Assembly (NCBI RefSeq): GCF_044324875.1
Contig: NZ_CP172185.1
Origin: Escherichia coli
Lineage (GTDB): Bacteria; Pseudomonadota; Gammaproteobacteria; Enterobacterales; Enterobacteriaceae
Direction: 5' to 3' (one strand)
DNA: 64,000 nucleotides
The translations under genes were made by a program, and so were the position numbers. Under the pieces are notes generated by a model that made no database searches, was not told the DNA's origin, and saw nothing but the letters and a program-made list of their open reading frames with translations. Shown piece by piece: positions 1,760 through 31,340 of the stretch. How positions within the stretch are numbered: position 1 is the first letter of the stretch; each line of letters opens with the position of its first letter.

Positions 1760-2617
1760 ATGTCAATTAAAACAATTAAGTATTTCTCAACAATCATTGT
1801 AGCGGTAGTTGCGGTTCTTGCCGGATGGTGGCTGTGGAATTATTACATGCAATCTCCGTGGACACGCGACGGGAAAATACGCGCAGAACAGGTTTCTATC
1901 ACCCCTCAGGTGTCGGGACGTATTGTTGAGCTGAATATAAAAGACAACCAACTGGTTAACGCGGGGGATCTTCTGCTCACGATCGATAAAACGCCCTTTC
2001 AGATCGCCGAGCTGAACGCACAGGCTCAGCTGGCGAAAGCGCAATCTGACCTCGCAAAAGCCAATAACGAAGCGAATCGTCGTCGTCATCTCTCACAAAA
2101 TTTTATTTCTGCCGAAGAACTCGATACCGCTAACCTCAATGTTAAAGCGATGCAGGCCAGTGTTGATGCCGCACAGGCGACGCTGAAACAGGCACAATGG
2201 CAACTGGCGCAAACGGAAATTCGCGCCCCGGTGAGTGGATGGGTGACTAACCTCACTACCCGCATCGGCGATTACGCTGACACCGGGAAACCGCTGTTTG
2301 CCCTTGTCGACAGCCACTCGTTTTACGTCATTGGTTATTTTGAAGAAACCAAGTTGCGCCATATCCGCGAAGGTGCACCAGCACAAATTACCCTCTATAG
2401 TGATAACAAAACGTTACAGGGTCACGTTTCCAGTATCGGTCGGGCGATTTATGATCAGAGCGTTGAAAGTGACTCAAGCCTTATTCCGGATGTGAAACCT
2501 AACGTCCCCTGGGTTCGACTTGCCCAACGCGTTCCCGTCCGCTTTGCGCTGGATAAAGTCCCAGGCGATGTCACGCTGGTGTCGGGCACCACCTGTAGCA
2601 TTGCCGTAGGTCAATAA
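1760..2617 (+). CDS. ydhJ: HlyD-family membrane fusion protein
   Basis: ATG at 1760 in the frame of ORF 1718..2617; N-terminal TM segment plus coiled-coil; 285 aa. Confidence 0.85.
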
Positions 2618-4629
2618 TGAACGCATCGTCATGGTCCTTGCGCAATTTGCCCTGGTTCAGGGCCACGCTGGCGCAATGGCGTTATGCGTTACGCAATACC
2701 ATTGCCATGTGTCTGGCGCTGACGGTTGCCTATTATTTAAATCTGGATGAACCCTATTGGGCGATGACCTCGGCTGCCGTGGTTAGCTTTCCCACCGTTG
2801 GCGGTGTCATCAGCAAAAGCCTCGGACGCATCGCTGGCAGTTTGCTCGGAGCCATTGCGGCACTGCTTCTTGCCGGACATACGCTCAATGAGCCGTGGTT
2901 TTTTCTTTTGAGCATGGCGGCGTGGCTTGGCTTTTGTACCTGGGCCTGTGCGCACTTCACGAATAATGTCGCGTATGCATTTCAACTGGCGGGCTACACG
3001 GCTGCCATCATCGCCTTTCCGATGGTTAATATTACTGAGGCCAGCCAGCTGTGGGATATCGCTCAGGCGCGCGTTTGCGAGGTGATTGTCGGTATTTTGT
3101 GCGGCGGCATGATGATGATGATCCTGCCGAGCAGTTCCGATGCTACTGCCCTTTTAACCGCATTGAAAAACATGCACGCCCGATTACTGGAACATGCCAG
3201 TTTACTCTGGCAGCCTGAAACAACCGATGCCATTCGTGCAGCACATGAGGGGGTGATTGGACAGATACTGACCATGAATTTGCTCCGTATCCAGGCTTTC
3301 TGGAGCCACTATCGTTTTCGCCAGCAAAACGCACGCCTTAATGCGCTGCTCCACCAGCAATTACGTATGACCAGTGTCATCTCCAGCCTGCGACGTATGT
3401 TGCTCAACTGGCCCTCACCGCCATGTGCCACACGAGAAATTCTCGAACAGCTGCTGACGGCGCTCGCCAGTTCGCAAACAGATGTTTACACCGTCGCACG
3501 TATTATCGCCCCGCTACGCCCGACCAACGTCGCCGACTACCGGCACGTCGCCTTCTGGCAGCGACTACGTTATTTTTGCCGCCTTTATCTGCAAAGTAGT
3601 CAGGAATTACATCGTCTGCAAAGCGGTGTGGATGATCATACCAGACTCCCACGGACATCCGGCCTGGCTCGTCATACCGATAACGCCGAAGCTATGTGGA
3701 GCGGACTGCGTACATTTTGTACGTTGATGATGATTGGCGCATGGAGTATTGCTTCGCAATGGGATGCCGGTGCCAATGCATTAACGCTGGCAGCAATTAG
3801 CTGCGTACTCTACTCCGCCGTCGCAGCACCGTTTAAGTCGTTGTCACTGCTGATGCGCACGCTGGTGTTACTTTCGCTATTCAGCTTTGTGGTCAAATTT
3901 GGCCTGATGGTCCAGATTAGCGATCTGTGGCAATTTTTACTGTTTCTCTTTCCACTGCTGGCGACGATGCAGCTTCTTAAATTGCAGATGCCCAAATTTG
4001 CCGCACTGTGGGGGCAACTGATTGTTTTTATGGGTTCGTTTATCGCTGTCACTAATCCCCCGGTGTATGATTTTGCTGATTTTCTTAACGATAATTTGGC
4101 AAAAATCGTTGGCGTCGCGTTGGCGTGGTTAGCGTTCGCCATTTTGCGTCCAGGGTCGGATGCTCGTAAAAGCCGTCGTCATATTCGCGCGCTGCGCCGG
4201 GATTTTGTCGATCAACTAAGCCGCCATCCAACACTGAGTGAAAGCGAATTTGAATCGCTCACTTATCATCACGTCAGTCAGTTGAGTAACAGCCAGGATG
4301 CGCTGGCTCGCCGTTGGTTATTACGCTGGGGTGTAGTGCTGCTGAACTGTTCTCATGTTGTCTGGCAATTACGCGACTGGGAATCGCGTTCCGATCCGTT
4401 ATCGCGAGTACGGGATAACTGTATTTCACTGTTGCGGGGAGTGATGAGTGAGCGTGGCGTTCAGCAAAAATCACTGGCGACCACACTTGAAGAATTACAG
4501 CGGATTTGTGACAGCCTTGCCCGTCATCATCAACCTGCTGCCCGTGAGCTGGCGGCAATTGTCTGGCGGCTGTACTGCTCGCTTTCGCAACTTGAGCAAG
4601 CACCGCCACAAGGTACGCTGGCCTCTTAA
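2617..4629 (+). CDS. ydhK: FUSC-family inner membrane efflux protein
   Basis: 670-aa polytopic membrane ORF whose start overlaps the ydhJ stop; synteny. Confidence 0.85.
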
Positions 4630-9583: not shown

Positions 9584-12500
9584 ATGGCAGATAATCCAAA
9601 CCTTTCATCGCCCCTGCCGGACGTGTTTTCACCGGCAACCCGCGACTGGTTTCTTCGCGCCTTTAAACAGCCGACCGCTGTCCAGTCGCAAACCTGGCAT
9701 GTGGCGGCGCGAGGCGAACATGCGCTGGTGATTGCACCGACTGGCTCCGGGAAAACGCTGGCAGCATTTCTCTACGCCCTCGATCAGCTCTTCCGCGAAG
9801 GCGGCGAAGATACCCGCGAGGCGCATAAACGTAAAACCTCACGCATCCTCTATATTTCACCGATCAAAGCTCTGGGCACCGACGTTCAGCGCAACTTGCA
9901 GATCCCGTTACAGGGTATTGCCGATGAACGGCGGCGGCGCGGCGAAACGGAAGTCAATCTTCGCGTGGGGATCCGTACTGGCGATACGCCTGCACAGGAA
10001 CGCAGCAAACTCACCCGTAATCCGCCGGATATTCTGATCACCACACCCGAATCACTCTATCTGATGCTGACCTCCCGCGCGCGCGAAACGCTACGCGGCG
10101 TCGAAACGGTAATTATTGATGAAGTCCACGCGGTAGCGGGCAGTAAACGTGGTGCGCATCTGGCGTTAAGTCTGGAGCGGCTCGATGCGCTGCTCCACAC
10201 CTCAGCACAGCGAATTGGCCTTTCTGCCACTGTACGCTCAGCCAGCGATGTTGCAGCATTTCTTGGTGGCGATCGCCCGGTTACGGTAGTAAACCCGCCC
10301 GCAATGCGCCATCCGCAGATACGGATTGTCGTACCGGTCGCCAATATGGATGATGTCTCATCGGTCGCCAGCGGCACCGGCGAAGACAGCCATGCCGGCC
10401 GAGAAGGCTCCATCTGGCCATATATTGAAACGGGTATCCTTGATGAAGTTTTGCGCCATCGCTCGACCATTGTCTTTACTAATTCACGCGGGCTGGCGGA
10501 AAAACTGACGGCACGATTGAATGAACTTTACGCCGCACGCTTACAGCGTTCCCCGTCTATCGCCGTTGATGCGGTCCATTTCGAGTCGACCTCCGGCGCA
10601 ACCTCTAACCGTGTACAAAATAGCGACATTTTTATTGCCCGCTCACACCACGGCTCCGTCTCTAAAGAACAACGAGCAATCACCGAACAGGCGCTGAAAT
10701 CGGGTGAATTACGCTGCGTGGTCGCAACCTCCAGTCTCGAACTGGGGATTGATATGGGCGCGGTGGATCTGGTGATTCAGGTGGCAACGCCGCTTTCTGT
10801 TGCCAGTGGGTTACAACGCATTGGACGTGCCGGACACCAGGTAGGTGGTATCTCCAAAGGGCTTTTTTTCCCCCGAACCAGGCGTGACTTAGTCGATTCC
10901 GCAGTCATTGTAGAGTGTATGTTCGCAGGCAGGCTGGAAAACCTGACACCGCCGCATAATCCACTCGACGTCCTTGCGCAGCAAACCGTTGCCGCCGCGG
11001 CGATGGATGCATTACAGGTAGACGAATGGTAATCCCGCGTACGCCGTGCCGCACCGTGGAAAGATCTGCCAAGACGTGTTTTTGACGCCACGCTGGATAT
11101 GCTTTCCGGGCGCTATCCCTCTGGCGATTTTTCTGCTTTTCGCCCCAAACTGGTCTGGAACCGGGAGACCGGGATATTGACCGCCCGACCTGGCGCTCAA
11201 TTGTTGGCGGTTACCAGCGGCGGCACCATTCCGGATCGTGGCATGTATAGCGTGTTATTACCCGAAGGTGAAGAACAGGCCGGTTCGCGGCGGGTGGGTG
11301 AACTGGATGAGGAGATGGTATATGAGTCGCGGGTGAACGACATTATCACTCTCGGCGCTACCTCATGGCGGATCCAGCAAATCACCCGCGATCAGGTGAT
11401 TGTGACTCCTGCTCCAGGTCGTTCTGCCCGCCTTCCCTTCTGGCGTGGTGAAGGTAACGGACGTCCGGCAGAATTAGGCGAGATGATCGGCGATTTTCTC
11501 CATTTACTGGCGGATGGCGCGTTCTTTTCCGGGACTATTCCCCCGTGGTTGGCAGAAGAAAATACGATCGCCAATATTCAGGGGTTGATTGACGAGCAGC
11601 GCAACGCGACGGGCATCGTTCCAGGTAGTCGTCATCTGGTCCTCGAACGGTGCCGTGATGAAATTGGTGACTGGCGTATTATTTTGCACTCTCCCTATGG
11701 AAGACGGGTGCATGAACCCTGGGCGCTGGCGATTGCCGGGCGAATACATGCACTATGGGGCGCTGACGCGTCTGTGGTTGCCAGTGATGACGGCATTGTT
11801 GCGCGCATTCCTGACACCGATGGTAAATTGCCTGATGCCGCGATTTTTTTGTTTGAACCAGAAAAGTTGCTGCAAATTGTCCGCGAGGCGGTAGGCAGCT
11901 CGGCACTTTTCGCCGCCCGTTTTCGCGAATGCTCCGCGCGGGCATTATTAATGCCGGGCCGCACGCCGGGCCATCGCACCCCGCTCTGGCAACAACGGCT
12001 GCGCGCCAGTCAGTTGCTGGAAATCGCTCAGGGATATCCGGATTTTCCGGTCATTCTCGAAACACTACGCGAATGTCTGCAAGATGTTTATGATCTTCCC
12101 GCGCTGGAACGTTTGATGCGTCGCCTGAACGGTGGCGAAATTCAAATATCCGATGTAACGACCACTACGCCTTCGCCTTTCGCCGCCAGTTTATTGTTCG
12201 GCTATGTCGCGGAATTTATGTACCAGAGCGACGCCCCGCTGGCAGAGCGCCGGGCATCCGTACTGTCGCTGGACAGCGAGTTACTGCGCAATCTACTCGG
12301 ACAGGTCGATCCGGGGGAATTACTCGACCCGCAGGTCATTCGCCAGGTGGAAGAAGAGTTGCAACGACTGGCTCCTGGCAGAAGAGCGAAAGGTGAAGAA
12401 GGATTGTTCGACCTGCTGCGCGAACTGGGGCCAATGACCGTTGAAGACCTGGCGCAACGACATACAGGCAGCAGTGAAGAGATTGCGTCGTATCTGGAAA

Positions 12501-23557: not shown

Positions 23558-24322
23558 TTAGAAATTGCAGATCACCAGCTCACGGCGTGGAGTTGATTTG
23601 CCTGCCAGACTGTAGTTGATGTTCACTGTCTGTATGTTCAGTCCAGTGAACACCTCGCGCATCTGCGGGATGTCGTTCACCGAAATTATCATCTTTCCTC
23701 TGATGCACCGGGCCAGCTCTGCCAGCCGCGAGTAGTTCCCTTCAGGAAAATCCACACCATAGCCTTCTGTACCCAGATACGGCGGGTCACAGTAGAACAG
23801 CGTGTGCGGACGGTCATAGCGCTCAATGCACTGTTGCCAGTCCATGTGTTCTATCACCGTTCTGGAAAGCCGCAGGTGTGCCGCTGACAGTTCTTCCTCG
23901 ATACGCAGCAGGTTGAAGCGTGGCGGGGATGTGGTGGAGGTGCCGAAGCTGTGCTCTGCCACCTTGCCGCCAAACGCCTGCTTCTGGAGGTAGTAGAACC
24001 GTGCTGCACGCTGGATATCCGTCAGTGTTTCTGTCGGGGTGATCTGCAGCCATTTGTAGATCTGCCGGCTGACCAGCGCCCATTTGAACTGGCGGACAAA
24101 TTCTTCCAGATGATGTTTTACCACCCGATACAGATTTACCAGTTCACCATTGATATCGTTAATGACTTCGAGCTTACCAGGTGTCTTAAGAAAATAGAGC
24201 GCTGCTGCGCCGCAGAACGGCTCCACGTAACATTCATGCGCCGGAAACAGCGGCAGGATGTGTTTTGCCAGGCGACGTTTGCCACCAATCCATGGAACGA
24301 TGGGTAATGTCTGCATTTTCAT
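23558..24322 (-). CDS. Dam-type N6-adenine DNA methyltransferase (D12 class)
   Basis: 254-aa ORF with DPPY catalytic motif and N-terminal FCGAAALYF SAM-binding motif. Confidence 0.8.
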   Translation of the reverse strand: MKMQTLPIVPWIGGKRRLAKHILPLFPAHECYVEPFCGAAALYFLKTPGKLEVINDINGELVNLYRVVKHHLEEFVRQFKWALVSRQIYKWLQITPTETLTDIQRAARFYYLQKQAFGGKVAEHSFGTSTTSPPRFNLLRIEEELSAAHLRLSRTVIEHMDWQQCIERYDRPHTLFYCDPPYLGTEGYGVDFPEGNYSRLAELARCIRGKMIISVNDIPQMREVFTGLNIQTVNINYSLAGKSTPRRELVICNF

Positions 24323-24514: not shown

Positions 24515-24730
24515 TTATCCGGGGCGATTTTCTGACCTTATCTGGTCCAGGGCATAAGTGATCCCTTCTGCAAAAACAGAAGTATCAAACTGCTTTTGTA
24601 TTTCCTGAAAATGAACAGTGGCACGACAGACACTCAGTTCTCCGCGATGTAACCGGATAATATCTTCCAGAACATTGTTCACTGCTTCGGCACGGCGCTG
24701 ATGTTCTGTTAACGTTAATCGGGGATTCAT
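24515..24730 (-). CDS. hypothetical 71-aa protein upstream of dam
   Basis: ATG with AAGGAG SD 8 nt upstream; no recognisable motif. Confidence 0.5.
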   Translation of the reverse strand: MNPRLTLTEHQRRAEAVNNVLEDIIRLHRGELSVCRATVHFQEIQKQFDTSVFAEGITYALDQIRSENRPG

Positions 24731-25107: not shown

Positions 25108-25656
25108 TTACGTGTTTAATGAACGTAAGTGAGGTTTATCCGCTGTCTGCATAATCCCGATAGCCAGTGCGAGGGGAAGCAATTCCGGGGAAACTCTTTC
25201 AAACAGCGATTCCCATTCTCCTCTCGCCATCACTCTGTCCAGCCCGCCCTCCAGCTGCATTTCAGCAATCTTCCTGATTTCCCGGAACAACGCCGCTTTG
25301 ATCTCTTCATGCTCAGCTTTATTTTCCGGTGTCAGAATGTATTCGTCGAAGAACCGGGGAGGCTGGTTAACGGGGGGCATGTTCACCGGGATGTGTTCCT
25401 GTATCCCGTACTCCGGGGCTGAAAAACATTTTGTTGTCTGACCGGTGAGTTTGCGTAACACCTTCATGAGTTGCTCCTGAAGCAGCTCATTCGTCCGACA
25501 GATACGCTCGTCGTCCACAACTGCGGCATCGACAATGACGCTTTTTCCAAATTCCTTTTTCACCATCTCTTTTATACGCGTCAGAACGTAACTTTTACCG
25601 CTGCCTACAGGCCCGGACACTCTGACGGTGATGGTCGGCTTCGGTGTGACTGTCAT
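25108..25656 (-). CDS. small P-loop NTPase (about 182 aa), function unknown
   Basis: Start MTVTPKPT with AAGGAG SD; Walker A GPVGSGKS and hhhhDD Walker B-like VIVDAAVVDDE. Confidence 0.6.
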   Translation of the reverse strand: MTVTPKPTITVRVSGPVGSGKSYVLTRIKEMVKKEFGKSVIVDAAVVDDERICRTNELLQEQLMKVLRKLTGQTTKCFSAPEYGIQEHIPVNMPPVNQPPRFFDEYILTPENKAEHEEIKAALFREIRKIAEMQLEGGLDRVMARGEWESLFERVSPELLPLALAIGIMQTADKPHLRSLNT

Positions 25657-25725
25657 TCTGTATCTCCTTTGTGAGTGATCCAGCGTGTATTCTGCATACC
25701 CCGAACACGCCTCTCTCTTAACGCG

Positions 25726-25736
25726 CTTTAAAATCC
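25726..25736 (+). promoter_or_regulatory. late-promoter-like motif GCTTTAAAATC about 60 bp upstream of first late gene
   Basis: One of four related motifs at matching distances from late-operon starts. Confidence 0.35.
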
Positions 25737-25787
25737 TCCGCGCCACGCTTTTGCCATGCTGTCTCCACACAACAAGGAGACATTTTC

Positions 25788-26138
25788 ATGAAACCATTCA
25801 CTTCCCTTATCGTTGACGTACAAAAAACCCGCCTGCGTGGATGGCTTGTTGCGGCCGTGCTGCTGCTCCTCATCATCGCGCTGGTCTCACCCCAGCAGTT
25901 GCCGGTGGTGGTGTACAAGCTCTCTCTCATCTCCCTCGCCGCCGTGCTCGGCTACTGGCTGGACCGCTCACTCTTCCCGAAGGCCCGTCCGGGGCAGTAC
26001 CTGAAGCATGACGAGCGCCTCATGGCTGAGGGGCGCTGGCCCGTACAGACCGGCCTTCACCTGGTGTTTTCTGCTGCGTTAATCCGCCGTGCACTGATTG
26101 TTGCAGCTGTCTGTCTGGCTGTTGCGATGGGGCTTTAA
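25788..26138 (+). CDS. putative holin / lysis membrane protein
   Basis: 116-aa ORF with two or three TM segments immediately upstream of the endolysin. Confidence 0.5.
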   Translation: MKPFTSLIVDVQKTRLRGWLVAAVLLLLIIALVSPQQLPVVVYKLSLISLAAVLGYWLDRSLFPKARPGQYLKHDERLMAEGRWPVQTGLHLVFSAALIRRALIVAAVCLAVAMGL

Positions 26139-26140
26139 TC

Positions 26141-26875
26141 ATGAACTGGCCACAGAGCACCTGGATTGTATGCATGTCCCTGAAACTGGCTTTCGAAGCC
26201 TTTCTGGTCTTCATCAGAACCGAACGCCTGTCAGTCCGTGTCGGGACCTTTCTGGTTCATATGGCATGGGTATTCTTTGTCGCAATGTTGCTCTGGTGTG
26301 GCGGCTTCTTCAGTCAGGCCCGCGCAGCGCAGCCTCCGCAGGCTGCGCTGCAGTATCGCGATGATGTGATCCGTAATGCCCGGCTTGAATGGGGGCTGTC
26401 TGCGCCGGTGGCCGATTTCGCCGCGCAACTGCATCAGGAAAGCGGCTGGCGGACTGATGCGGTCTCGCCGGTGGGCGCTCAGGGGCTGGCGCAGTTTATG
26501 CCCGCCACCGCTGACTGGATAAGCCAGTTGATGCCGGCGTTGAGCAGTCGTGAGCCGTTTAATCCGGCATGGGCCATCCGGGCGCTGGTCAGCTATGACC
26601 GCTGGCTGTGGCAGCGCATCAGCGCCGCCAGTGACTGCGAGCGTATGGCCATGACACTGTCGGGCTATAACGGTGGTCTGGGTTGGGTACAACGGGACAG
26701 GCGGCTCGCATCACAGAAAGGTCTGGACAGCACCCGCTGGTTCGGACATGTCGCCACGGTGAATGCCGGACGCAATGCTGCCAGCTGGCGGGAGAACCGC
26801 CATTATCCGCAGCGCATCCTGCACGAACTGGCCCCCCGTTATCTGACATGGGGGGGCGGCAGCTGTGTGGACTAA
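26141..26875 (+). CDS. lytic transglycosylase endolysin (SLT domain), probable signal-anchor (SAR) type
   Basis: SLT catalytic region HQESGWR...GAQGLAQFMPATA; hydrophobic N-terminal segment. Confidence 0.75.
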   Translation: MNWPQSTWIVCMSLKLAFEAFLVFIRTERLSVRVGTFLVHMAWVFFVAMLLWCGGFFSQARAAQPPQAALQYRDDVIRNARLEWGLSAPVADFAAQLHQESGWRTDAVSPVGAQGLAQFMPATADWISQLMPALSSREPFNPAWAIRALVSYDRWLWQRISAASDCERMAMTLSGYNGGLGWVQRDRRLASQKGLDSTRWFGHVATVNAGRNAASWRENRHYPQRILHELAPRYLTWGGGSCVD

Positions 26876-27167
26876 CCTGCTAAAAAATCTGCCGTGGCGC
26901 AGTCTGCTGCTGGCAGTGCTCATAAATGCTTTTCTGATTGGACTTTATTACCTGGGCTACAAAAGTGCAAAATGGCATCTGAATCGATCGCAGTTTGGCA
27001 TTCGAATCGATCATGATTTGGCATCCATCTCCGATCACAGTTTGGCATCACAATCGATCACGATTTGGCATGCTTCCGATCATTGATTGGCATCCTGCCA
27101 GTCACTCCGGGAATTAACTCTTTTCACCACAGTCTCCATTGCCGTGTTTAAACCAGTGGAGACGTCA

Positions 27168-28733
27168 ATGTCCAGAAAGAGAAAATCCAGGAGCACTATG
27201 GAAACCTGTTTTAAGATCCTTCAGCTCAAGTTCGACAAGAAGCTGACTAACCGTTGTATCGGACTGACGTTACACATCAGCGCCTCAACCGTTTTTGAGG
27301 TTCTTGCCCGCTTCAAAGCCTCTTCTCTGTCATGGCCATTACCTGCTGATATATCCCATGACACGCTGGAGAAACTCATTTTTCCGCCCAAAGACACCTT
27401 TGCATCAGAGCTTGTAATGCCTGACATGTTGTACTTCGATACGGAAATGAGAAAACCAGGTGTGACGCGGCAACTGTTGTGGATGGAATACAAGGCACAG
27501 GCGGGTAACAAAGCGATGGGATACTCGCACTTCTGCCGTTGCTACCGGGAGTGGAAAAAAACGCGACGTCTCTCCATGCGCCAGGAGCATCGTGCCGGCG
27601 AAAAGCTTTTTATCGACTTCTGTGGTCCTACGGTTCCTGTTATTAATCCGGACACCGGTGAGATACGCCGCGTGGCAATCTTCGTGGCCGTAATGGGGGC
27701 GTCCAACTATACCTACGTTGAAGCGTGCGAAGGTCAGGACATGATGTCATGGTTAAATGCCCACAGCCGTTGCCTGACCTTCCTGGGCGGCGTACCGAAG
27801 CTGCTCATCCCCGATAACCTCAGAAGCGCAGTGAAAAAGGCCGATCGATATGAGCCTGTCATCAACGACAGTTATCAGGCACTGGCTGAGCACTATGGCA
27901 CGGTTATCATCCCGGCCCGACCACGCAAACCTAAAGATAAACCAAAAGCAGAAAACGGCGTCCTCATCGTTGAACGATGGCTTCTTGCCCGCATCCGTAA
28001 TGAAACCTTCCACACGCTCAGGGCGCTGAATGCGCGCCTTAGGGAGTTACTGACAGACATGAATAACCGGCCAATGAAGGGGTACGGCAATCAAACCCGT
28101 GCAGAACGCTTCCGCATACTGGATGCGCCAGCACTCTCTCCGCTGCCTCTGGCACCTTATGAATACACGGAATACAAAGCTGTGAAGGTTGGCCCTGACT
28201 ACCACGTTGAATATGCCCGTCACTGGTACTCCGTTCCACACGAACTGGTCGGTCAGCGTCTGTCACTGAAGGCGGGGCAGTCGGTGGTACAGCTCTGGCA
28301 CAAGGGGCAGTGTGTGGCGCAACATCCGCGCAGCACACATGAATATAAACACACAACCAATCCGCTTCACATGCCAGAGCGCCACCGGCAGCACGGGACA
28401 TGGACACCGGAACGCCTGATCGAGCAGGGAAAACGTACGGGCCCGTCCACAGGCCGGGTGGTTGAATCCATGCTGAAGGCAAAACCCCATCCGGAACTGG
28501 CTTATCGTGCAGTTCTGGGGCTGCTGGCACTTCAGAAAAAATACGGCCCGGAACGGCTGGAAAAGGCCTGTTACGTTGCCCTGCACTATAACGCCCCTGA
28601 CAGACGCTTTATCGACAATCTGCTGCGTCACCATCGGGAGAACCTGGAGCTTCCATTATCCCGCCAGGGCGAACAACATCCGGCATATGCTTCAGAGCAT
28701 GAAAACCTGCGTGGTCCGGGCTACTACCACTGA
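27168..28733 (+). CDS. istA: IS21-family transposase IstA
   Basis: N-terminal HTH plus DDE core (FIDFCGP ... IPDNLRS ... VERW); start uncertain (27087 TTG to 27198 ATG). Confidence 0.8.
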   Translation: MSRKRKSRSTMETCFKILQLKFDKKLTNRCIGLTLHISASTVFEVLARFKASSLSWPLPADISHDTLEKLIFPPKDTFASELVMPDMLYFDTEMRKPGVTRQLLWMEYKAQAGNKAMGYSHFCRCYREWKKTRRLSMRQEHRAGEKLFIDFCGPTVPVINPDTGEIRRVAIFVAVMGASNYTYVEACEGQDMMSWLNAHSRCLTFLGGVPKLLIPDNLRSAVKKADRYEPVINDSYQALAEHYGTVIIPARPRKPKDKPKAENGVLIVERWLLARIRNETFHTLRALNARLRELLTDMNNRPMKGYGNQTRAERFRILDAPALSPLPLAPYEYTEYKAVKVGPDYHVEYARHWYSVPHELVGQRLSLKAGQSVVQLWHKGQCVAQHPRSTHEYKHTTNPLHMPERHRQHGTWTPERLIEQGKRTGPSTGRVVESMLKAKPHPELAYRAVLGLLALQKKYGPERLEKACYVALHYNAPDRRFIDNLLRHHRENLELPLSRQGEQHPAYASEHENLRGPGYYH

Positions 28734-28749
28734 CAGAAGGAACAACAGT

Positions 28750-29505
28750 ATGAGTGATAACCTGTTAAACAAACTGACCCAACTGAAACTCCCGGCGATG
28801 GCCGGGAGCCTGATACGGCAGCGGGAAACGCCTCAGACCTACGACGAACTGTCGTTCGAGGAAAGGCTGACGCTGCTGGTTGATGACGAGCTTCTGAGCA
28901 GGGAAAACAGCCGTGTGGCACGGTTGAGAAAAAATGCCGGCCTGAAATACCAGGCAACACCGGAAGGGCTGCGCTATCCGGCCTCAAGAGGTCTGCGGGC
29001 TGAACAGATGAGAGAACTGCTGAACGGCCACTACATAACCCACAGGAAAAACCTGCTGATAACCGGTCCGACAGGATGTGGCAAGAGCTGGATAGCCAAT
29101 GCGCTGGGCGAACAGGCATGTCGACAGAAACACAGCGTCCGGTACTGTAGAACCGGGCGATTACTGGAACAACTGGCTCAGGGACGTGTTGATGGCAGCT
29201 GGCTGAAATATCTGAAACAGTTGCAAAAAATACAGGTTCTAATCCTGGACGATCTGGGGCTGGAACAGTTAAGTAACGCCCAGTGTAATGACCTTCTGGA
29301 GCTCATAGAGGATCGTTACGGACAAAGCAGCACGATAGTGGTAAGCCAGTTCCCGGTAGATAAATGGCATGGTCTGATGGAGAACCCAACAACAGCAGAT
29401 GCCATCCTGGACAGACTGGTACATAACTCACACCGAGTGGTCCTTCAGGGAGAGTCACTGAGGAAAAATCCCCCGGTAGTGGAAAGCAGCGAAAAAACGC
29501 GTTAA
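28750..29505 (+). CDS. istB: IS21-family helper ATPase IstB
   Basis: 251-aa ORF with Walker A GPTGCGKSWIA; ATG at 28750 a few bp after istA stop. Confidence 0.85.
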   Translation: MSDNLLNKLTQLKLPAMAGSLIRQRETPQTYDELSFEERLTLLVDDELLSRENSRVARLRKNAGLKYQATPEGLRYPASRGLRAEQMRELLNGHYITHRKNLLITGPTGCGKSWIANALGEQACRQKHSVRYCRTGRLLEQLAQGRVDGSWLKYLKQLQKIQVLILDDLGLEQLSNAQCNDLLELIEDRYGQSSTIVVSQFPVDKWHGLMENPTTADAILDRLVHNSHRVVLQGESLRKNPPVVESSEKTR

Positions 29506-29856
29506 AAAGCGGTAGAAAAAGTTAAGTTCCCGGTTGATCGAATGGATGCGAATCGCTGATCGGACTTCGATGCCAATCCGTGATCGAATAGAGCGGAATA
29601 CGCAAAAGCGGGCATGAAAACGCCACGCGCGACGGCGATAAGGCGATCAGTGAGTTGCAGTCAGCATTCGACACATACAAAACGGAGCAGGCAATGCTTG
29701 AGAACGCTGCATTGCGAGCATGGGCAAAACGGTATCAGGAGCAGGTGGCCGCTGGGCAGCAGGCTGAGGCCGGTTATCTTGAGCAGATTGCTCAACTGGA
29801 GAGTCAGAACAAACAACTACAGGGGCAAATTAACGATGTCACACAGCGCTGGATTG

Positions 29857-30123
29857 ATGAAAAAGGTAAGAGCCATCCCATTGAGTGCGTGTTTACTCGC
29901 GGTTTCGTGCGCCAGTACAACGCCGCACTCGGGTATGACAACGCATCCGTCGACACCGGTCATTCAGACTCAGTTGCCGCCACTGGCACCCGCTCTGGCA
30001 CAGCGACCGGGCAACCTGAAACCACTGACACCCGGTTACGCGATTCGGGTGTCTCCCAGCGTGACGTTCTCGCCAACATCATCGACAACGCAGGACAATG
30101 TCGTCGCTGGCGGAACCAGATAA
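29857..30123 (+). CDS. Rz1-like o-spanin lipoprotein embedded in the Rz frame
   Basis: MKKVRAIPLSACLLAVSCAST lipobox followed by Pro-rich mature region, wholly inside the Rz C-terminal coding region in another frame. Confidence 0.5.
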   Translation: MKKVRAIPLSACLLAVSCASTTPHSGMTTHPSTPVIQTQLPPLAPALAQRPGNLKPLTPGYAIRVSPSVTFSPTSSTTQDNVVAGGTR

Positions 30124-30157
30124 ACGCGTTGCTGGATGAACGGGAAGGATTACAGAA

Positions 30158-30484
30158 ATGACACTGCAGGTTGAATTCTGGACGGTGGTGGGCTTTCTCA
30201 TCACCTTCATGAGCTTTGTTGGCGGTATGGCCAAATGGCTGTTCAGTAAAGCGGAGGAACGTCAGGCTGCACGTTTTGCCTCTCTTGAGCAGTCACTGCA
30301 GCAGTCCGCCTCCAGTTGGGGCGAGCTGGAAAAAGAATTGATGCGATTTAAAGCGGATTTACCGCTGAATTATGTCCGTCGCGAGGATTATATCCGTGGC
30401 CAGACAGTCATCGAGGCCAAACTGGACGCGCTTTACAACAAACTGGAAGTGGTACAGCAGTACCGCAATACCGGAGGTCAATAA
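30158..30484 (+). CDS. hypothetical late protein with N-terminal TM (108 aa)
   Basis: ORF overlapping Rz stop. Confidence 0.45.
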   Translation: MTLQVEFWTVVGFLITFMSFVGGMAKWLFSKAEERQAARFASLEQSLQQSASSWGELEKELMRFKADLPLNYVRREDYIRGQTVIEAKLDALYNKLEVVQQYRNTGGQ

Positions 30485-30795
30485 TGGTCGATATTACCCG
30501 GGTACGCCGTGAATCCCTGCGCTGGAGTCTGCTGGTTGCCCTTAACAAAACCCGCCCTTACACCGCCAGCGAGACGCTGCTGCTGGAAGTGTCCCGCGCC
30601 ATCTACCCGGACACCACGCAACTGGAACTGCGCCGTGAGCTTGATTACCTGGCAGATCGCAAAATGGTGGAACTGGAGAGGAGACCGTCCGGTGACTGGT
30701 TTGCCGATCTGAGTCGCCTTGGTGTGGATATTGTGGAATACACCGTGGAATGCGGCCCCGGTATTGCCCGCCCGGAAAAATACTGGAGTGAGTGA
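30484..30795 (+). CDS. hypothetical late protein (103 aa)
   Basis: ORF; start overlaps upstream stop. Confidence 0.45.
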   Translation: MVDITRVRRESLRWSLLVALNKTRPYTASETLLLEVSRAIYPDTTQLELRRELDYLADRKMVELERRPSGDWFADLSRLGVDIVEYTVECGPGIARPEKYWSE

Positions 30796-31340
30796 TTATG
30801 GGACGTCGCAGCAGCATTGATTCTCTGCCGAAGGAGGTCCGTCGCTGGCTTGAGCGGGCACTGACGGAGAATAATTTCACCGGCTATGCAGAGCTTGAAA
30901 GTCTGTTGAAGGAAAAGGGGTACAGCATCACCCGCTCTTCCCTGCAGCGGTTTGGCTACAAAATGGAGCAGCAACTGGCCCGTGTGCGGGCGGCAACCGA
31001 GGCAGCGCGTCTGCTTGCCCGGGAGGCCGGAGACGATCCTGATGACCGTTCAGCCGGACTGATAACCCTCGTCCAGACCGAAATGACGGATATCCTGATG
31101 CGCCTGCAGGAGTCGCGGGAAAACGACGATCCCTTCGCCCGGGCAAAACTGCTGGCAACGGCTTCAAAAAATATCGCCACACTGACCCGCGCCTCGGTCA
31201 ACCTCAAGCGCTATCAGGCAGAAGTCAGAGAGAGGGTTGAACGTGCTGCCGCTGCCGCCGAGAAAATTGCCCGTAAGGGCGGGCTCTCTGCGGAAGCCGT
31301 ACAGGCACTGCGCCGGGAAATTCTGGGGGTGGCGTCATGA
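30792..31340 (+). CDS. DUF3486-type protein (Mu gp27-like, putative small terminase)
   Basis: 182-aa ORF immediately upstream of large terminase; family recalled from memory. Confidence 0.55.
   Translation: MIMGRRSSIDSLPKEVRRWLERALTENNFTGYAELESLLKEKGYSITRSSLQRFGYKMEQQLARVRAATEAARLLAREAGDDPDDRSAGLITLVQTEMTDILMRLQESRENDDPFARAKLLATASKNIATLTRASVNLKRYQAEVRERVERAAAAAEKIARKGGLSAEAVQALRREILGVAS

What the first reader, a model, noticed from the sequence alone, without database searches (positions are those of the whole stretch)
26141..26875. Endolysin is a lytic transglycosylase with a hydrophobic N-terminus
The SLT-domain protein carries an N-terminal hydrophobic stretch before the catalytic region, consistent with a signal-anchor-release endolysin. 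That would make lysis timing holin-independent in part and matches the holin-like gene immediately upstream.
Basis: inference. Interest (0 to 1): 0.25.

Follow-up and report, generated by a model that had tools for sequence, protein, structure and literature searches.

The report
Exported prophage endolysin with fused membrane hairpin
This is the cell-wall-cutting lysis enzyme of a Mu-like prophage of E. coli; it is an ordinary exported lytic transglycosylase, except that its export signal is a two-helix membrane hairpin that other phages carry as a separate small gene of unknown function.

Summary
ORF 26141-26875 (+, 244 aa) has an SLT lytic-transglycosylase domain with an intact catalytic Glu (E100). 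It sits between a Holin_2-3 holin and Rz-like spanin genes in a BcepMu-like transposable prophage. Its N-terminus is hydrophobic, and the start codon lies upstream of that stretch and is conserved.

The SAR reading is only partly supported. Export without the holin is very likely: nearly all of 132 diverse homologues carry a signal peptide or a lipobox. But the N-terminus is not SAR-like:
- It has two helices (about 5-27 and 34-57), an uncharged N-tail and a basic loop between the helices.
- Helix 2 is strongly hydrophobic (12% Gly/Ala/Ser/Thr, against 47-59% in P1 Lyz, R21 and Mu gp22).
- It is followed by a conserved A-x-A motif (A60-R-A62|A63), in register with the signal-peptide cleavage sites of homologues.

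The hairpin belongs to PHROG 5479, a free-standing ~54-aa phage membrane protein family of unknown function. In Pseudomonas phage CF78a it is a separate gene between the holin and a lipoprotein version of the endolysin.

Most likely mechanism, inferred and not shown: Sec export via helix 2, leader-peptidase cleavage, and holin-triggered lysis. An IS21-family element has broken the adjacent i-spanin gene. Modest interest.

The parts
25788..26138 (+). Holin gene (116 aa; hydrophobic stretches at about residues 15-55 and 91-116), 2 nt upstream of the endolysin ATG
   Evidence: Pfam Holin_2-3 PF13272 E=1.7e-41; PHROG 1528 holin; 59% identical to BcepMu gp21; hydropathy
26141..26875 (+). Endolysin ORF (244 aa): membrane hairpin + A-x-A linker + SLT catalytic domain
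   Evidence: 100% identical DNA annotated 'transglycosylase SLT domain-containing protein' in E. coli genomes; 62% identical to BcepMu gp22 from residue 69
26153..26221 (+). Hairpin helix 1 (residues 5-27), preceded by the conserved uncharged N-tail MNWPQ; predicted N-terminus in the periplasm
   Evidence: AlphaFold helix 5-27; KD segment 8-25; conserved M-x-W-P-Q-I motif; positive-inside rule from the charge distribution
26216..26239 (+). Basic inter-helix loop (R26-T-E-R-L-S-V-R33), predicted cytoplasmic; it serves as the n-region of the export signal
   Evidence: charge counts across the family: 2-4 K+R in the loop, none in the N-tail
26240..26311 (+). Hairpin helix 2 (residues 34-57), ending in the family motif LLWCGGFF (26288-26311); strongly hydrophobic, not SAR-like
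   Evidence: KD and composition against validated SAR domains; motif entropy 0.46 bits against 0.62 for the catalytic domain; PHROG 5479 match to residues 42-58; full-length alignment with free-standing members
26318..26326 (+). A60-R61-A62: predicted leader-peptidase (SPase I) site, cutting between A62 and A63 (nt 26326|26327)
   Evidence: In 101 homologues (97 hairpin-bearing, 4 Brenneria/Pectobacterium with a classical signal peptide): -3 Ala 91, -2 variable (2.34 bits), -1 Ala 99, +1 Ala 98. In register with (-3,-1) sites of 97 of 132 diverse homologues and with the published SignalP site of KS10 gp9 (PMC2628397)
26327..26872 (+). Predicted mature periplasmic lytic transglycosylase (residues 63-244). 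Pfam SLT core is residues 97-193 (nt 26429-26719). Catalytic Glu100 codon is GAA at 26438-26440. Cysteines C166 and C242 are conserved in most of the family.
26865..26965 (+). 5' fragment (about 34 codons, including the N-terminal TM segment) of the Rz-like i-spanin gene, cut by the IS insertion
   Evidence: PHROG 1403 Rz-like spanin E=2.8e-4; intact 654-nt gene in E. coli Ec1117; break point from blastn
26966..29604 (+). IS21-family insertion sequence (istA, istB), ends TG...CA, flanked by AAAG (4-6 bp duplication)
   Evidence: NCBIfam IS21 transposase 284.6 bits and IstB 257.8 bits; junctions
29603..30161 (+). 3' remainder of the i-spanin gene, separated from its start
29857..30123 (+). Embedded o-spanin (Rz1-like) ORF in another frame: signal MKKVRAIPLSACLLAVSC with a lipobox, followed by a proline-rich region
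   Evidence: translation; BcepMu has the same embedded Rz/Rz1 arrangement

Best explanation
The gene encodes the endolysin of a BcepMu-like transposable prophage of E. coli. It is a family-1 lytic transglycosylase that the host Sec machinery places in the periplasm without help from the holin.

Its N-terminus is a two-helix membrane hairpin: N-terminus out, basic loop in the cytoplasm, C-terminus out. The hairpin is homologous to a free-standing ~54-aa phage membrane protein family (PHROG 5479). It has been fused in front of the c-region of the enzyme's former signal peptide.

Proposed steps:
1. Helix 2 acts as the hydrophobic core of the export signal.
2. Leader peptidase cuts after A60-R-A62. 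This releases a soluble 182-aa enzyme into the periplasm and leaves a 62-aa hairpin peptide in the membrane.
3. The enzyme accumulates without lysing the cell until the upstream holin collapses the membrane potential.
4. The spanins then open the outer membrane. In this copy the i-spanin is inactivated by an IS element.

Shown here: domain identity, catalytic residues, the two helices, the start codon, homology of the hairpin to free-standing proteins, conservation and register of the A-x-A motif, and the cassette context. Inferred: topology, Sec export, cleavage, and holin/PMF control.
For: Enzyme and cassette:
- SLT domain, catalytic E100-S101, fold and cassette context.
- Mu-like prophage: rve transposase, Portal_Mu, Mu_F, Mu_Gp27, tail sheath. 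The close relative PhiKM is classified in Bcepmuvirus.

The family is exported:
- 118 of 132 diverse representatives have one N-terminal hydrophobic segment.
- 97 of 132 have a (-3,-1) small-residue site just after a hydrophobic core, 1-6 residues before the conserved P66 column. 11 of the other 35 have lipoboxes.
- BcepMu gp22 starts MRVLIAFVVALLGAAAPVAA|QVP.
- KS10 gp9 has a published SignalP cleavage site at 44/45, AHA|QVP (PMC2628397).

Cleavage motif: in 101 homologues (97 hairpin-bearing) -3 is Ala in 91, -2 is variable, -1 is Ala in 99 and +1 is Ala in 98.

The hairpin is an independent module:
- The profile search gave 421 hits; apart from a few truncated endolysin fragments, the 120 listed are free-standing proteins of about 52-60 aa, which match PHROG 5479.
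- In Pseudomonas phage CF78a it is a separate 52-aa gene between the holin and an endolysin with the lipobox LLTAC.
- Free-standing members end at GGFFG. The SQAxA linker is seen only in the fusions.

Topology: no charge in the N-tail and 2-4 K/R in the loop. A Gly54-Gly55 helix break precedes the linker.

Precedent for holin/PMF control of exported endolysins: PMC6116005.
Against: - No validated predictor (SignalP, DeepTMHMM) could be run.
- The hydrophobic stretch before the site is about 20-24 residues. That is longer than a typical signal-peptide core and close to signal-anchor length, so it may stay uncleaved.
- The LLWCGGFFS motif is more conserved than expected for a disposable signal peptide. 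This may mean the hairpin stays attached or has a role of its own.
- How a freely soluble periplasmic transglycosylase is kept harmless in a Gram-negative host before holin triggering is not established. The PMF-control precedents are from Gram-positive hosts.
- Nothing was tested experimentally.
Confidence: 0.55

Rival explanations
1. Uncleaved, stably anchored endolysin. The two-helix hairpin is a permanent membrane anchor. The periplasmic SLT domain stays tethered, out of reach of the cell wall, until it is freed by holin-induced membrane damage or by a regulated protease.
For: - Helix 2 plus flanks is about 20-24 hydrophobic residues, which is signal-anchor length.
- The hairpin motifs are as conserved as the catalytic domain.
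- Other family members are lipid-tethered: the CF78a lipobox and 11 or more lipobox representatives.
Against: - The A-x-A|A motif has a variable -2 position and is in register with the signal-peptide cleavage sites of homologues.
- The linker between the membrane and the catalytic domain is only about 10 residues, so a tethered enzyme would need a release step for which no component is evident.
- No DUF2730 releasin was found downstream.
Confidence: 0.25
2. True SAR (signal-anchor-release) endolysin. The N-terminal hydrophobic domain inserts via Sec, is not cleaved, and leaves the bilayer when a pinholin depolarises the membrane, which activates the enzyme.
For: - There is an N-terminal hydrophobic domain before a muralytic domain, and a holin next door.
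- SAR transglycosylases are reported in Pseudomonas Mu-like siphophages, and Mu itself has a SAR endolysin (PMC9239132).
- A Gly-Gly pair and a Cys lie in helix 2.
Against: - There are two helices rather than one.
- Helix 2 is 12% Gly/Ala/Ser/Thr against 47-59% in P1 Lyz, R21 and Mu gp22.
- The N-tail is uncharged and the basic residues sit in the inter-helix loop, so release would drag a charged loop across the membrane.
- A conserved SPase-type A-x-A motif follows.
- Homologues with Leu-rich classical signal peptides, such as Brenneria P0109, cannot be SAR.
- C53 is Trp in free-standing hairpins and Ala in B3, so a P1-like thiol switch is unlikely.
Confidence: 0.12
3. Canonical cytoplasmic endolysin. 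Translation really starts downstream of the hydrophobic region and the enzyme waits in the cytoplasm for holin holes.
For: Some metagenomic gene calls start at M12 (P0002, P0018).
Against: - The N-terminal motif and the holin-stop/ATG junction are conserved across genera.
- There is no ATG between residue 50 and M120, which lies beyond the catalytic E100. The only GTGs (residues 76 and 90) lack a Shine-Dalgarno sequence and would truncate conserved sequence.
- M12 still lies upstream of both the helix-1 core and helix 2.
- The whole family carries export signals.
Confidence: 0.03

Closest known systems
BcepMu gp22 / KS10 gp9 (SLT endolysins of BcepMu-like transposable phages)
   Same: - The catalytic domain is 62% identical to BcepMu gp22.
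- The cassette is the same: Holin_2-3 holin, a 2-nt gap, the endolysin, then embedded Rz/Rz1 spanins.
- Both carry an N-terminal export signal ending in A-x-A just before the conserved mature N-terminus. A signal peptide was predicted in print for KS10 (PMC2628397).
   Different: BcepMu and KS10 have a single hydrophobic segment. The window protein has a two-helix hairpin about 40 residues longer, which is homologous to an independent protein family.
Pseudomonas phage B3 ORF25 and B3-like phage CF78a gp24+gp25
   Same: B3 ORF25 has the same fused architecture: MGIPQ..., two helices, GGFFSSAKA|DEIP, at 53.5% identity over the full length. CF78a has the same three elements in the same order after the holin.
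   Different: In CF78a the hairpin is a separate 52-aa gene ending at GGFFG. The endolysin there has its own lipoprotein signal, MKRLLTLGLLGLLTAC.
SAR endolysins (P1 Lyz, phage 21 R21, Mu gp22)
   Same: An N-terminal hydrophobic domain delivers a muralytic domain to the periplasm by Sec without the holin, and a holin or pinholin sets the timing.
   Different: They belong to a different catalytic family (T4-lysozyme-like). Their domain is a single, weakly hydrophobic, Gly/Ala-rich helix with a basic N-tail and no cleavage motif (PMC9239132).
Signal-peptide ('e-') endolysins such as Lys44 of Oenococcus phage fOg44
   Same: Proposed Sec export with signal-peptide removal, accumulation of mature enzyme outside the membrane, and activation when the holin dissipates the membrane potential (PMC6116005).
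   Different: Those are from a Gram-positive host, use a different enzyme, and have a simple signal peptide rather than a hairpin with an N-terminal extension.
PHROG 5479 small phage membrane proteins (e.g. FoX2 gp47, Mica gp37, BcepB1A gp72)
   Same: They share the motifs M-x-x-P-Q-I-I-W ... basic loop ... LLWWGGFF, two helices, and a length of about 54 aa.
   Different: They are free-standing. In Mica, BcepB1A, a Rhizobium phage and Xanthomonas prophages they lie among replication or early genes, not in the lysis cassette. Their function is unknown. The core of the window's own hairpin (residues 9-48) is a divergent allele that matches the PHROG only at residues 42-58.
Host membrane-bound and soluble lytic transglycosylases (MltF, MltE, MltC, Slt70)
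   Same: Same fold and catalytic motifs. All are periplasmic.
   Different: About 17-23% identity. The window protein scores far below the NCBIfam cut-offs for these equivalogs. It is prophage-encoded inside a lysis cassette.

Membership tests
Family-1 lytic transglycosylase (Pfam SLT PF01464, GH23) | Profile match above the curated threshold | tested here: met
   50.7 bits against a cut-off of 21.3, residues 97-193
Family-1 lytic transglycosylase (Pfam SLT PF01464, GH23) | Catalytic Glu in an E-S motif, plus the G-L-x-Q and A/G-Y-N-x-G motifs | tested here: met
   E100-S101 aligns with the Slt70 catalytic E-S. E100, S101, G115 and Q118 are invariant, and Y176, N177 and G179 are at least 90% conserved, in 132 homologues.
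Family-1 lytic transglycosylase (Pfam SLT PF01464, GH23) | Goose-lysozyme-like alpha-helical fold | tested here: met
   AlphaFold model (pLDDT 75.7; 80-96 in the core). Foldseek probability 1.0 to MltF, MltE, MltC and Slt70.
Family-1 lytic transglycosylase (Pfam SLT PF01464, GH23) | Forms 1,6-anhydro-MurNAc products | not testable with these tools
   Needs an enzymatic assay.
Phage endolysin of a BcepMu-type lysis cassette | Located between the holin and the spanins in a (pro)phage, and homologous to an annotated endolysin | tested here: met
   Holin upstream; spanin fragments downstream; PHROG 669 endolysin E=4.9e-67; 62% identical to BcepMu gp22; Mu-like prophage genes.
SAR (signal-anchor-release) endolysin | A single N-terminal TM domain behind a short basic cytoplasmic tail | tested here: not met
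   Two helices. The N-tail MNWPQS has no charge and the basic residues lie in the inter-helix loop.
SAR (signal-anchor-release) endolysin | TM domain made mainly of weakly hydrophobic residues (Gly, Ala, Ser, Thr) | tested here: not met
   Helix 2 is 12% G/A/S/T and 76% L/I/V/F/M/W. P1 Lyz is 47%, R21 59% and Mu gp22 59% G/A/S/T. Criterion as stated in PMC9239132.
SAR (signal-anchor-release) endolysin | Not processed by signal peptidase | tested here: inconclusive
   A conserved A-x-A|A motif argues for processing. No predictor or experiment was available.
SAR (signal-anchor-release) endolysin | Released from the membrane on depolarisation, with activation | not testable with these tools
   Needs fractionation with and without an uncoupler.
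Sec signal-peptide (SPase I-processed) exported endolysin | Basic n-region, hydrophobic h-region, and c-region with small residues at -3 and -1, with no Pro at +1 | tested here: met
   R26/R29/R33; residues 34-57; S-Q-A60-R-A62|A63-Q-P.
Sec signal-peptide (SPase I-processed) exported endolysin | Site in register with the signal-peptide cleavage sites of homologues | tested here: met
   97 of 132 representatives have a (-3,-1) site 1-6 residues before the P66 column; the window has 3. The published KS10 SignalP site AHA|QVP aligns with it. The scan is my own heuristic, not a validated predictor.
Sec signal-peptide (SPase I-processed) exported endolysin | h-region of typical signal-peptide length (roughly 7-15 residues) | tested here: not met
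   About 20-24 hydrophobic residues. A Gly54-Gly55 break may shorten the effective core, but the length is atypical.
Sec signal-peptide (SPase I-processed) exported endolysin | Processing demonstrated | not testable with these tools
   Needs a Western blot or N-terminal sequencing.
PHROG 5479 small membrane protein family (N-terminal module only) | Profile match and the family motifs M-x-x-P-Q ... LLW[WC]GGFF over about 54 residues with two helices | tested here: met
   The window's module aligns full-length with 11 members; M1, Q5, G48, G49, F50 and F51 of the reference are invariant. Free-standing members score E=1e-17 to 1e-30 against PHROG 5479. The window's divergent allele scores only E=7.6e-4 over residues 42-58. 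Its flanks are identical in DNA to the KP12 allele.
Mu-type releasin partnership (DUF2730, Mu gp25) | [quoted passage not shown] | tested here: not met
   No PF10805 hit in the ORFs at 29614-31340. They match PHROG 462 'lipoprotein' and PHROG 436 'unknown function'.

The most novel reading that the evidence does not exclude
The gene makes two products from one reading frame. Leader-peptidase cleavage yields the soluble endolysin plus a 62-aa two-helix membrane peptide, a PHROG 5479 protein that other phages encode separately. That peptide has its own function.

One possibility is that it modulates the neighbouring holin, or sets a delay through slow processing of an over-long signal. This would be a way of regulating an exported endolysin that is distinct from both SAR domains and releasins.

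The conservation of LLW[WC]GGFF, which is tighter than that of the catalytic domain, and the alternation between fused and split arrangements right after the holin are what make this reading possible.
Probability: 0.2. Interest if true: 0.55.

Novelty: new variant of a known kind. Interest (0 to 1): 0.3.

Why it matters
Exported endolysins raise the question of how a phage keeps a wall-degrading enzyme harmless once it is already outside the membrane. The only well-worked answers are SAR domains (with pinholins or the Mu releasin) and PMF-restrained secreted enzymes in Gram-positive hosts.

This family uses at least four interchangeable delivery devices on one catalytic domain:
- a plain signal peptide;
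- a lipoprotein signal;
- a fused two-helix hairpin;
- possibly a holin fusion.

That makes it a natural set of comparisons for testing what the delivery mode contributes to lysis timing in Gram-negative hosts.

It also gives a first functional handle on PHROG 5479, a widespread small phage membrane protein with no known role.

Practically, annotators should not label such proteins 'SAR endolysin' on hydrophobicity alone. For this particular prophage, the IS21-family insertion in the i-spanin gene means the lysis cassette is no longer intact.

Tried and rejected
- **Frameshift origin of the odd hairpin core (residues 9-48).** DNA alignment with KP12 and PhiKM shows a replaced cassette of about 125 nt with identical flanks, not indels. 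The other two frames do not encode the common allele.
- **Lipoprotein.** L-L-W-C53 has Trp at -1, so it is not a lipobox. Rejected by inspection.
- **P1-like disulfide or thiol switch using C53.** C53 is Trp in free-standing hairpins, Ala in B3 and Ser in some enteric homologues. C166 and C242 are conserved in most of the family and more likely form a structural periplasmic disulfide.
- **Mu-type releasin (DUF2730) downstream.** None found.
- **A known family for the hairpin.** No significant hit in Pfam, NCBIfam or PADLOC. No paper contains the motif strings.
- **A lysis role for the hairpin inferred from context.** In Mica, BcepB1A, a Rhizobium phage, Xanthomonas prophages and gut-metagenome phages it sits among early or replication genes. 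Its neighbours are not lysis proteins. Context therefore does not support a dedicated lysis role.
- **Primary BcepMu paper (Summer et al. 2004).** Not held in the library, so I could not check what it says about the gp22 signal.
- **Counting fused versus free-standing hairpins.** The hairpin profile search listed only its top 120 hits. Apart from a few truncated endolysin fragments, these are short free-standing proteins, so the relative numbers could not be counted from it.
Full report
**1. What is there**

The window carries a Mu-like transposable prophage. It has an rve-type transposase, a MuB-like AAA protein, Portal_Mu, Mu_F, Mu_Gp27 and a contractile sheath. The DNA is 100% identical to prophages in many E. 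coli chromosomes. It is closely related to Escherichia phage PhiKM, which is classified in Bcepmuvirus.

ORF 26141-26875 (+, 244 aa) follows a Holin_2-3 holin at 25788-26138, with the holin stop codon 2 nt before the ATG. It overlaps the start of an Rz-like i-spanin gene.

Evidence that the ORF is an SLT lytic transglycosylase:
- It matches Pfam SLT well above threshold and PHROG 669 'endolysin' at E=4.9e-67.
- Its E100-S101 aligns with the catalytic Glu-Ser of Slt70.
- E100, S101, G115 and Q118 are invariant in 132 representatives of a family with more than 3,000 detectable members.
- An AlphaFold model (pLDDT 75.7) matches MltF, MltE, MltC and Slt70.
- From residue 69 it is 62% identical to BcepMu endolysin gp22.

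**2. The N-terminus and the start codon**

Hydropathy gives two hydrophobic segments, at residues 8-25 and 34-58. AlphaFold gives two helices, 5-27 and 30-53, with a break at Gly54-Gly55.

It fails for three reasons:
- The N-terminal motif M-x-W-P-Q-I-T-W is conserved in about 100 enterobacterial homologues and in Pseudomonas phage B3.
- The holin-stop/2-nt/ATG junction is the same in BcepMu, KP12, PhiKM, B3 and CF78a.
- No credible start codon lies between the hydrophobic region and the catalytic Glu.

**3. It is not SAR-like**

I checked the sequences of three experimentally validated SAR endolysins against the PDB and GenBank. Their SAR helices are 47-59% Gly/Ala/Ser/Thr. Helix 2 here is 12% Gly/Ala/Ser/Thr and 76% Leu/Ile/Val/Phe/Met/Trp.

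[quoted passage not shown] In this protein the N-tail is uncharged. The basic residues (R26, R29, R33) lie between the helices. By the positive-inside rule this gives an N-out / loop-in / C-out hairpin. Escape of such a hairpin into the periplasm would require a charged loop to cross the bilayer (inference).

**4. It is an exported enzyme with a signal-peptidase-type junction**

I classified the N-termini of 132 diverse representatives:
- 118 have a single hydrophobic segment, mostly textbook signal peptides or lipoboxes.
- 97 have a (-3,-1) small-residue site directly after a hydrophobic core, 1-6 residues before the conserved P66 column. This scan is my own heuristic, not a validated predictor.
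- BcepMu gp22 begins MRVLIAFVVALLGAAAPVAA|QVP.
- For KS10 gp9 a SignalP cleavage site at 44/45 (AHA|QVP) was published (PMC2628397).

The window protein has S-Q-A60-R-A62|A63-Q-P-P in the same register. Across 101 homologues (97 of them hairpin-bearing), -3 is Ala in 91, -2 is highly variable (2.34 bits), -1 is Ala in 99 and +1 is Ala in 98. This is the classic A-x-A signature.

I therefore think leader-peptidase cleavage is the most likely fate. The main caveat is that the hydrophobic stretch is about 20-24 residues, which is close to signal-anchor length.

**5. The hairpin is a separate module**

In Pseudomonas phage CF78a (Beetrevirus) the gene after the holin is a 52-aa ORF, MGVPQIIWIV...VWWGGFFG. 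It is followed by an overlapping endolysin gene that starts with a lipoprotein signal, MKRLLTLGLLGLLTAC. In phage B3 the same two parts are fused.

A profile of the hairpin found 421 proteins. Apart from a few truncated endolysin fragments, the 120 listed are free-standing proteins of about 52-60 aa from Xanthomonas, Pseudomonas, metagenomes and phages. They match PHROG 5479 'unknown function'. They have no Pfam, NCBIfam or PADLOC family, and I found no literature on them.

Free-standing members end at GGFFG. The SQAxA linker occurs only in the fusions.

In phages Mica, BcepB1A, a Rhizobium phage, Xanthomonas prophages and gut-metagenome phages, the gene lies among replication or early genes rather than lysis genes. 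Its native function is therefore probably not lysis-specific.

In the fusions the motif LLWCGGFFS is more conserved (0.46 bits entropy) than the catalytic domain (0.62). This hints that the hairpin keeps a function.

The window's own hairpin core (codons about 8-49) is a divergent allele. It is bounded by DNA identical to the common allele, so it is a mosaic replacement and not a frameshift.

**6. Mechanism**

The best-supported model, with confidence about 0.55:
1. The hairpin inserts into the inner membrane.
2. Helix 2 drives Sec translocation of the SLT domain.
3. Leader peptidase cuts at 62|63.
4. Mature enzyme accumulates in the periplasm.
5. The holin triggers lysis by collapsing the membrane potential, as described for exported endolysins (PMC6116005).
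6. The spanins finish the job.

Rivals:
- An uncleaved two-helix anchor needing a further release step (0.25).
- True SAR behaviour (0.12).
- A cytoplasmic enzyme from a downstream start (0.03).

Only the anatomy and the comparative patterns are shown. Topology, export, cleavage and control are inferred.

**7. State of this copy**

An IS21-family element (26966-29604; IstA and IstB) interrupts the i-spanin gene after about 34 codons. Intact relatives have a 654-nt gene. The embedded o-spanin (29857-30123) is intact. The endolysin and holin genes themselves are intact.

**8. Novelty and score**

The enzyme family, its cassette and the idea that its members carry export signals are all known (BcepMu annotation, KS10 paper, Mu releasin paper). 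As far as I could find, the following have not been described:
- that the hydrophobic N-terminus of this enterobacterial/B3 subgroup is a fused copy of an independent small-membrane-protein family;
- that the family switches between signal peptide, lipobox and hairpin.

That makes it a new variant of a known kind. It is of modest interest (0.3), mainly to people working on phage lysis.

Noticed in passing
window 26966-29604: A 2.6-kb IS21-family element (istA about 27168-28733, istB about 28747-29505) with multiple TTGGCATC-type terminal repeats and TG...CA ends. It is inserted in the i-spanin gene and flanked by AAAG (the blast overlap is 6 bp, CAAAAG). Relatives such as E. coli Ec1117 lack it.
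   Followed up: partly
window 29857-30123: An embedded o-spanin (Rz1-like) ORF in a second frame of the i-spanin gene. It has the lipoprotein signal MKKVRAIPLSACLLAVSC and a proline-rich body. It is intact although its i-spanin partner is broken.
   Followed up: partly
window 26165-26285 vs L011 (Klebsiella phage KP12) 1525-1640: The core of the hairpin (codons about 8-49) is a non-homologous or highly diverged cassette. The DNA on both sides is identical. This suggests two hairpin alleles exchanged by recombination at the conserved MNWPQ and LLWCGGFF ends.
   Followed up: partly
L005 (Pseudomonas phage vB_Pae_CF78a) 2253-3037: The hairpin is a separate 52-aa gene (gp24). The SLT endolysin (gp25) starts with a lipobox (LLTAC), so it is a predicted lipoprotein endolysin. 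The two genes overlap by ATGA.
   Followed up: partly
protein P0223 (303 aa, metagenome/genome representative): An apparent single-chain holin-endolysin fusion. A Holin_2-3-like N-terminal part (LGYWIDRTIFPYSRP) has a last helix ending in a lipobox (LSGC) and runs straight into the SLT domain. It could be real or a stop-codon or gene-calling artefact.
   Followed up: no
L003 (phage B3, NC_006548) 2438-3232: The annotated B3 ORF25 start (record position 11918, TTG's translation, overlapping the holin) is probably 63 nt too far upstream. The conserved ATG (MGIPQ...) is at record position 11981, 2 nt after the holin stop.
   Followed up: partly
proteins P0271, P0302, P0321 (E. coli, 71-74 aa): Several E. 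coli assemblies carry versions of this gene that are frameshifted just after GGFF. These would encode only the hairpin plus a short out-of-frame tail. They may be pseudogenes, sequencing errors or natural 'split' forms.
   Followed up: no
L007 (Xanthomonas phage FoX2) 2168-2263: A 31-aa ORF just after the free-standing hairpin gene is annotated 'putative lytic murein transglycosylase'. It has no resemblance to the enzyme, so the name is probably an annotation carry-over.
   Followed up: partly
window 25108-25770 (-) and 24515-24730 (-): Two conserved prophage genes of unknown function lie upstream of the holin on the opposite strand: a P-loop/AAA-like protein (PHROG 3787; RefSeq annotates a shorter 549-nt version) and a 71-aa protein (PHROG 4490). 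Beyond them is a D12-class Dam methylase at 23558-24322.
   Followed up: no
window 30158-30795: The two genes after the spanins (108 aa, PHROG 462 'lipoprotein'; 103 aa, PHROG 436 unknown) occupy the position where Mu has gp25/gp26. They are not DUF2730 releasin homologues.
   Followed up: partly
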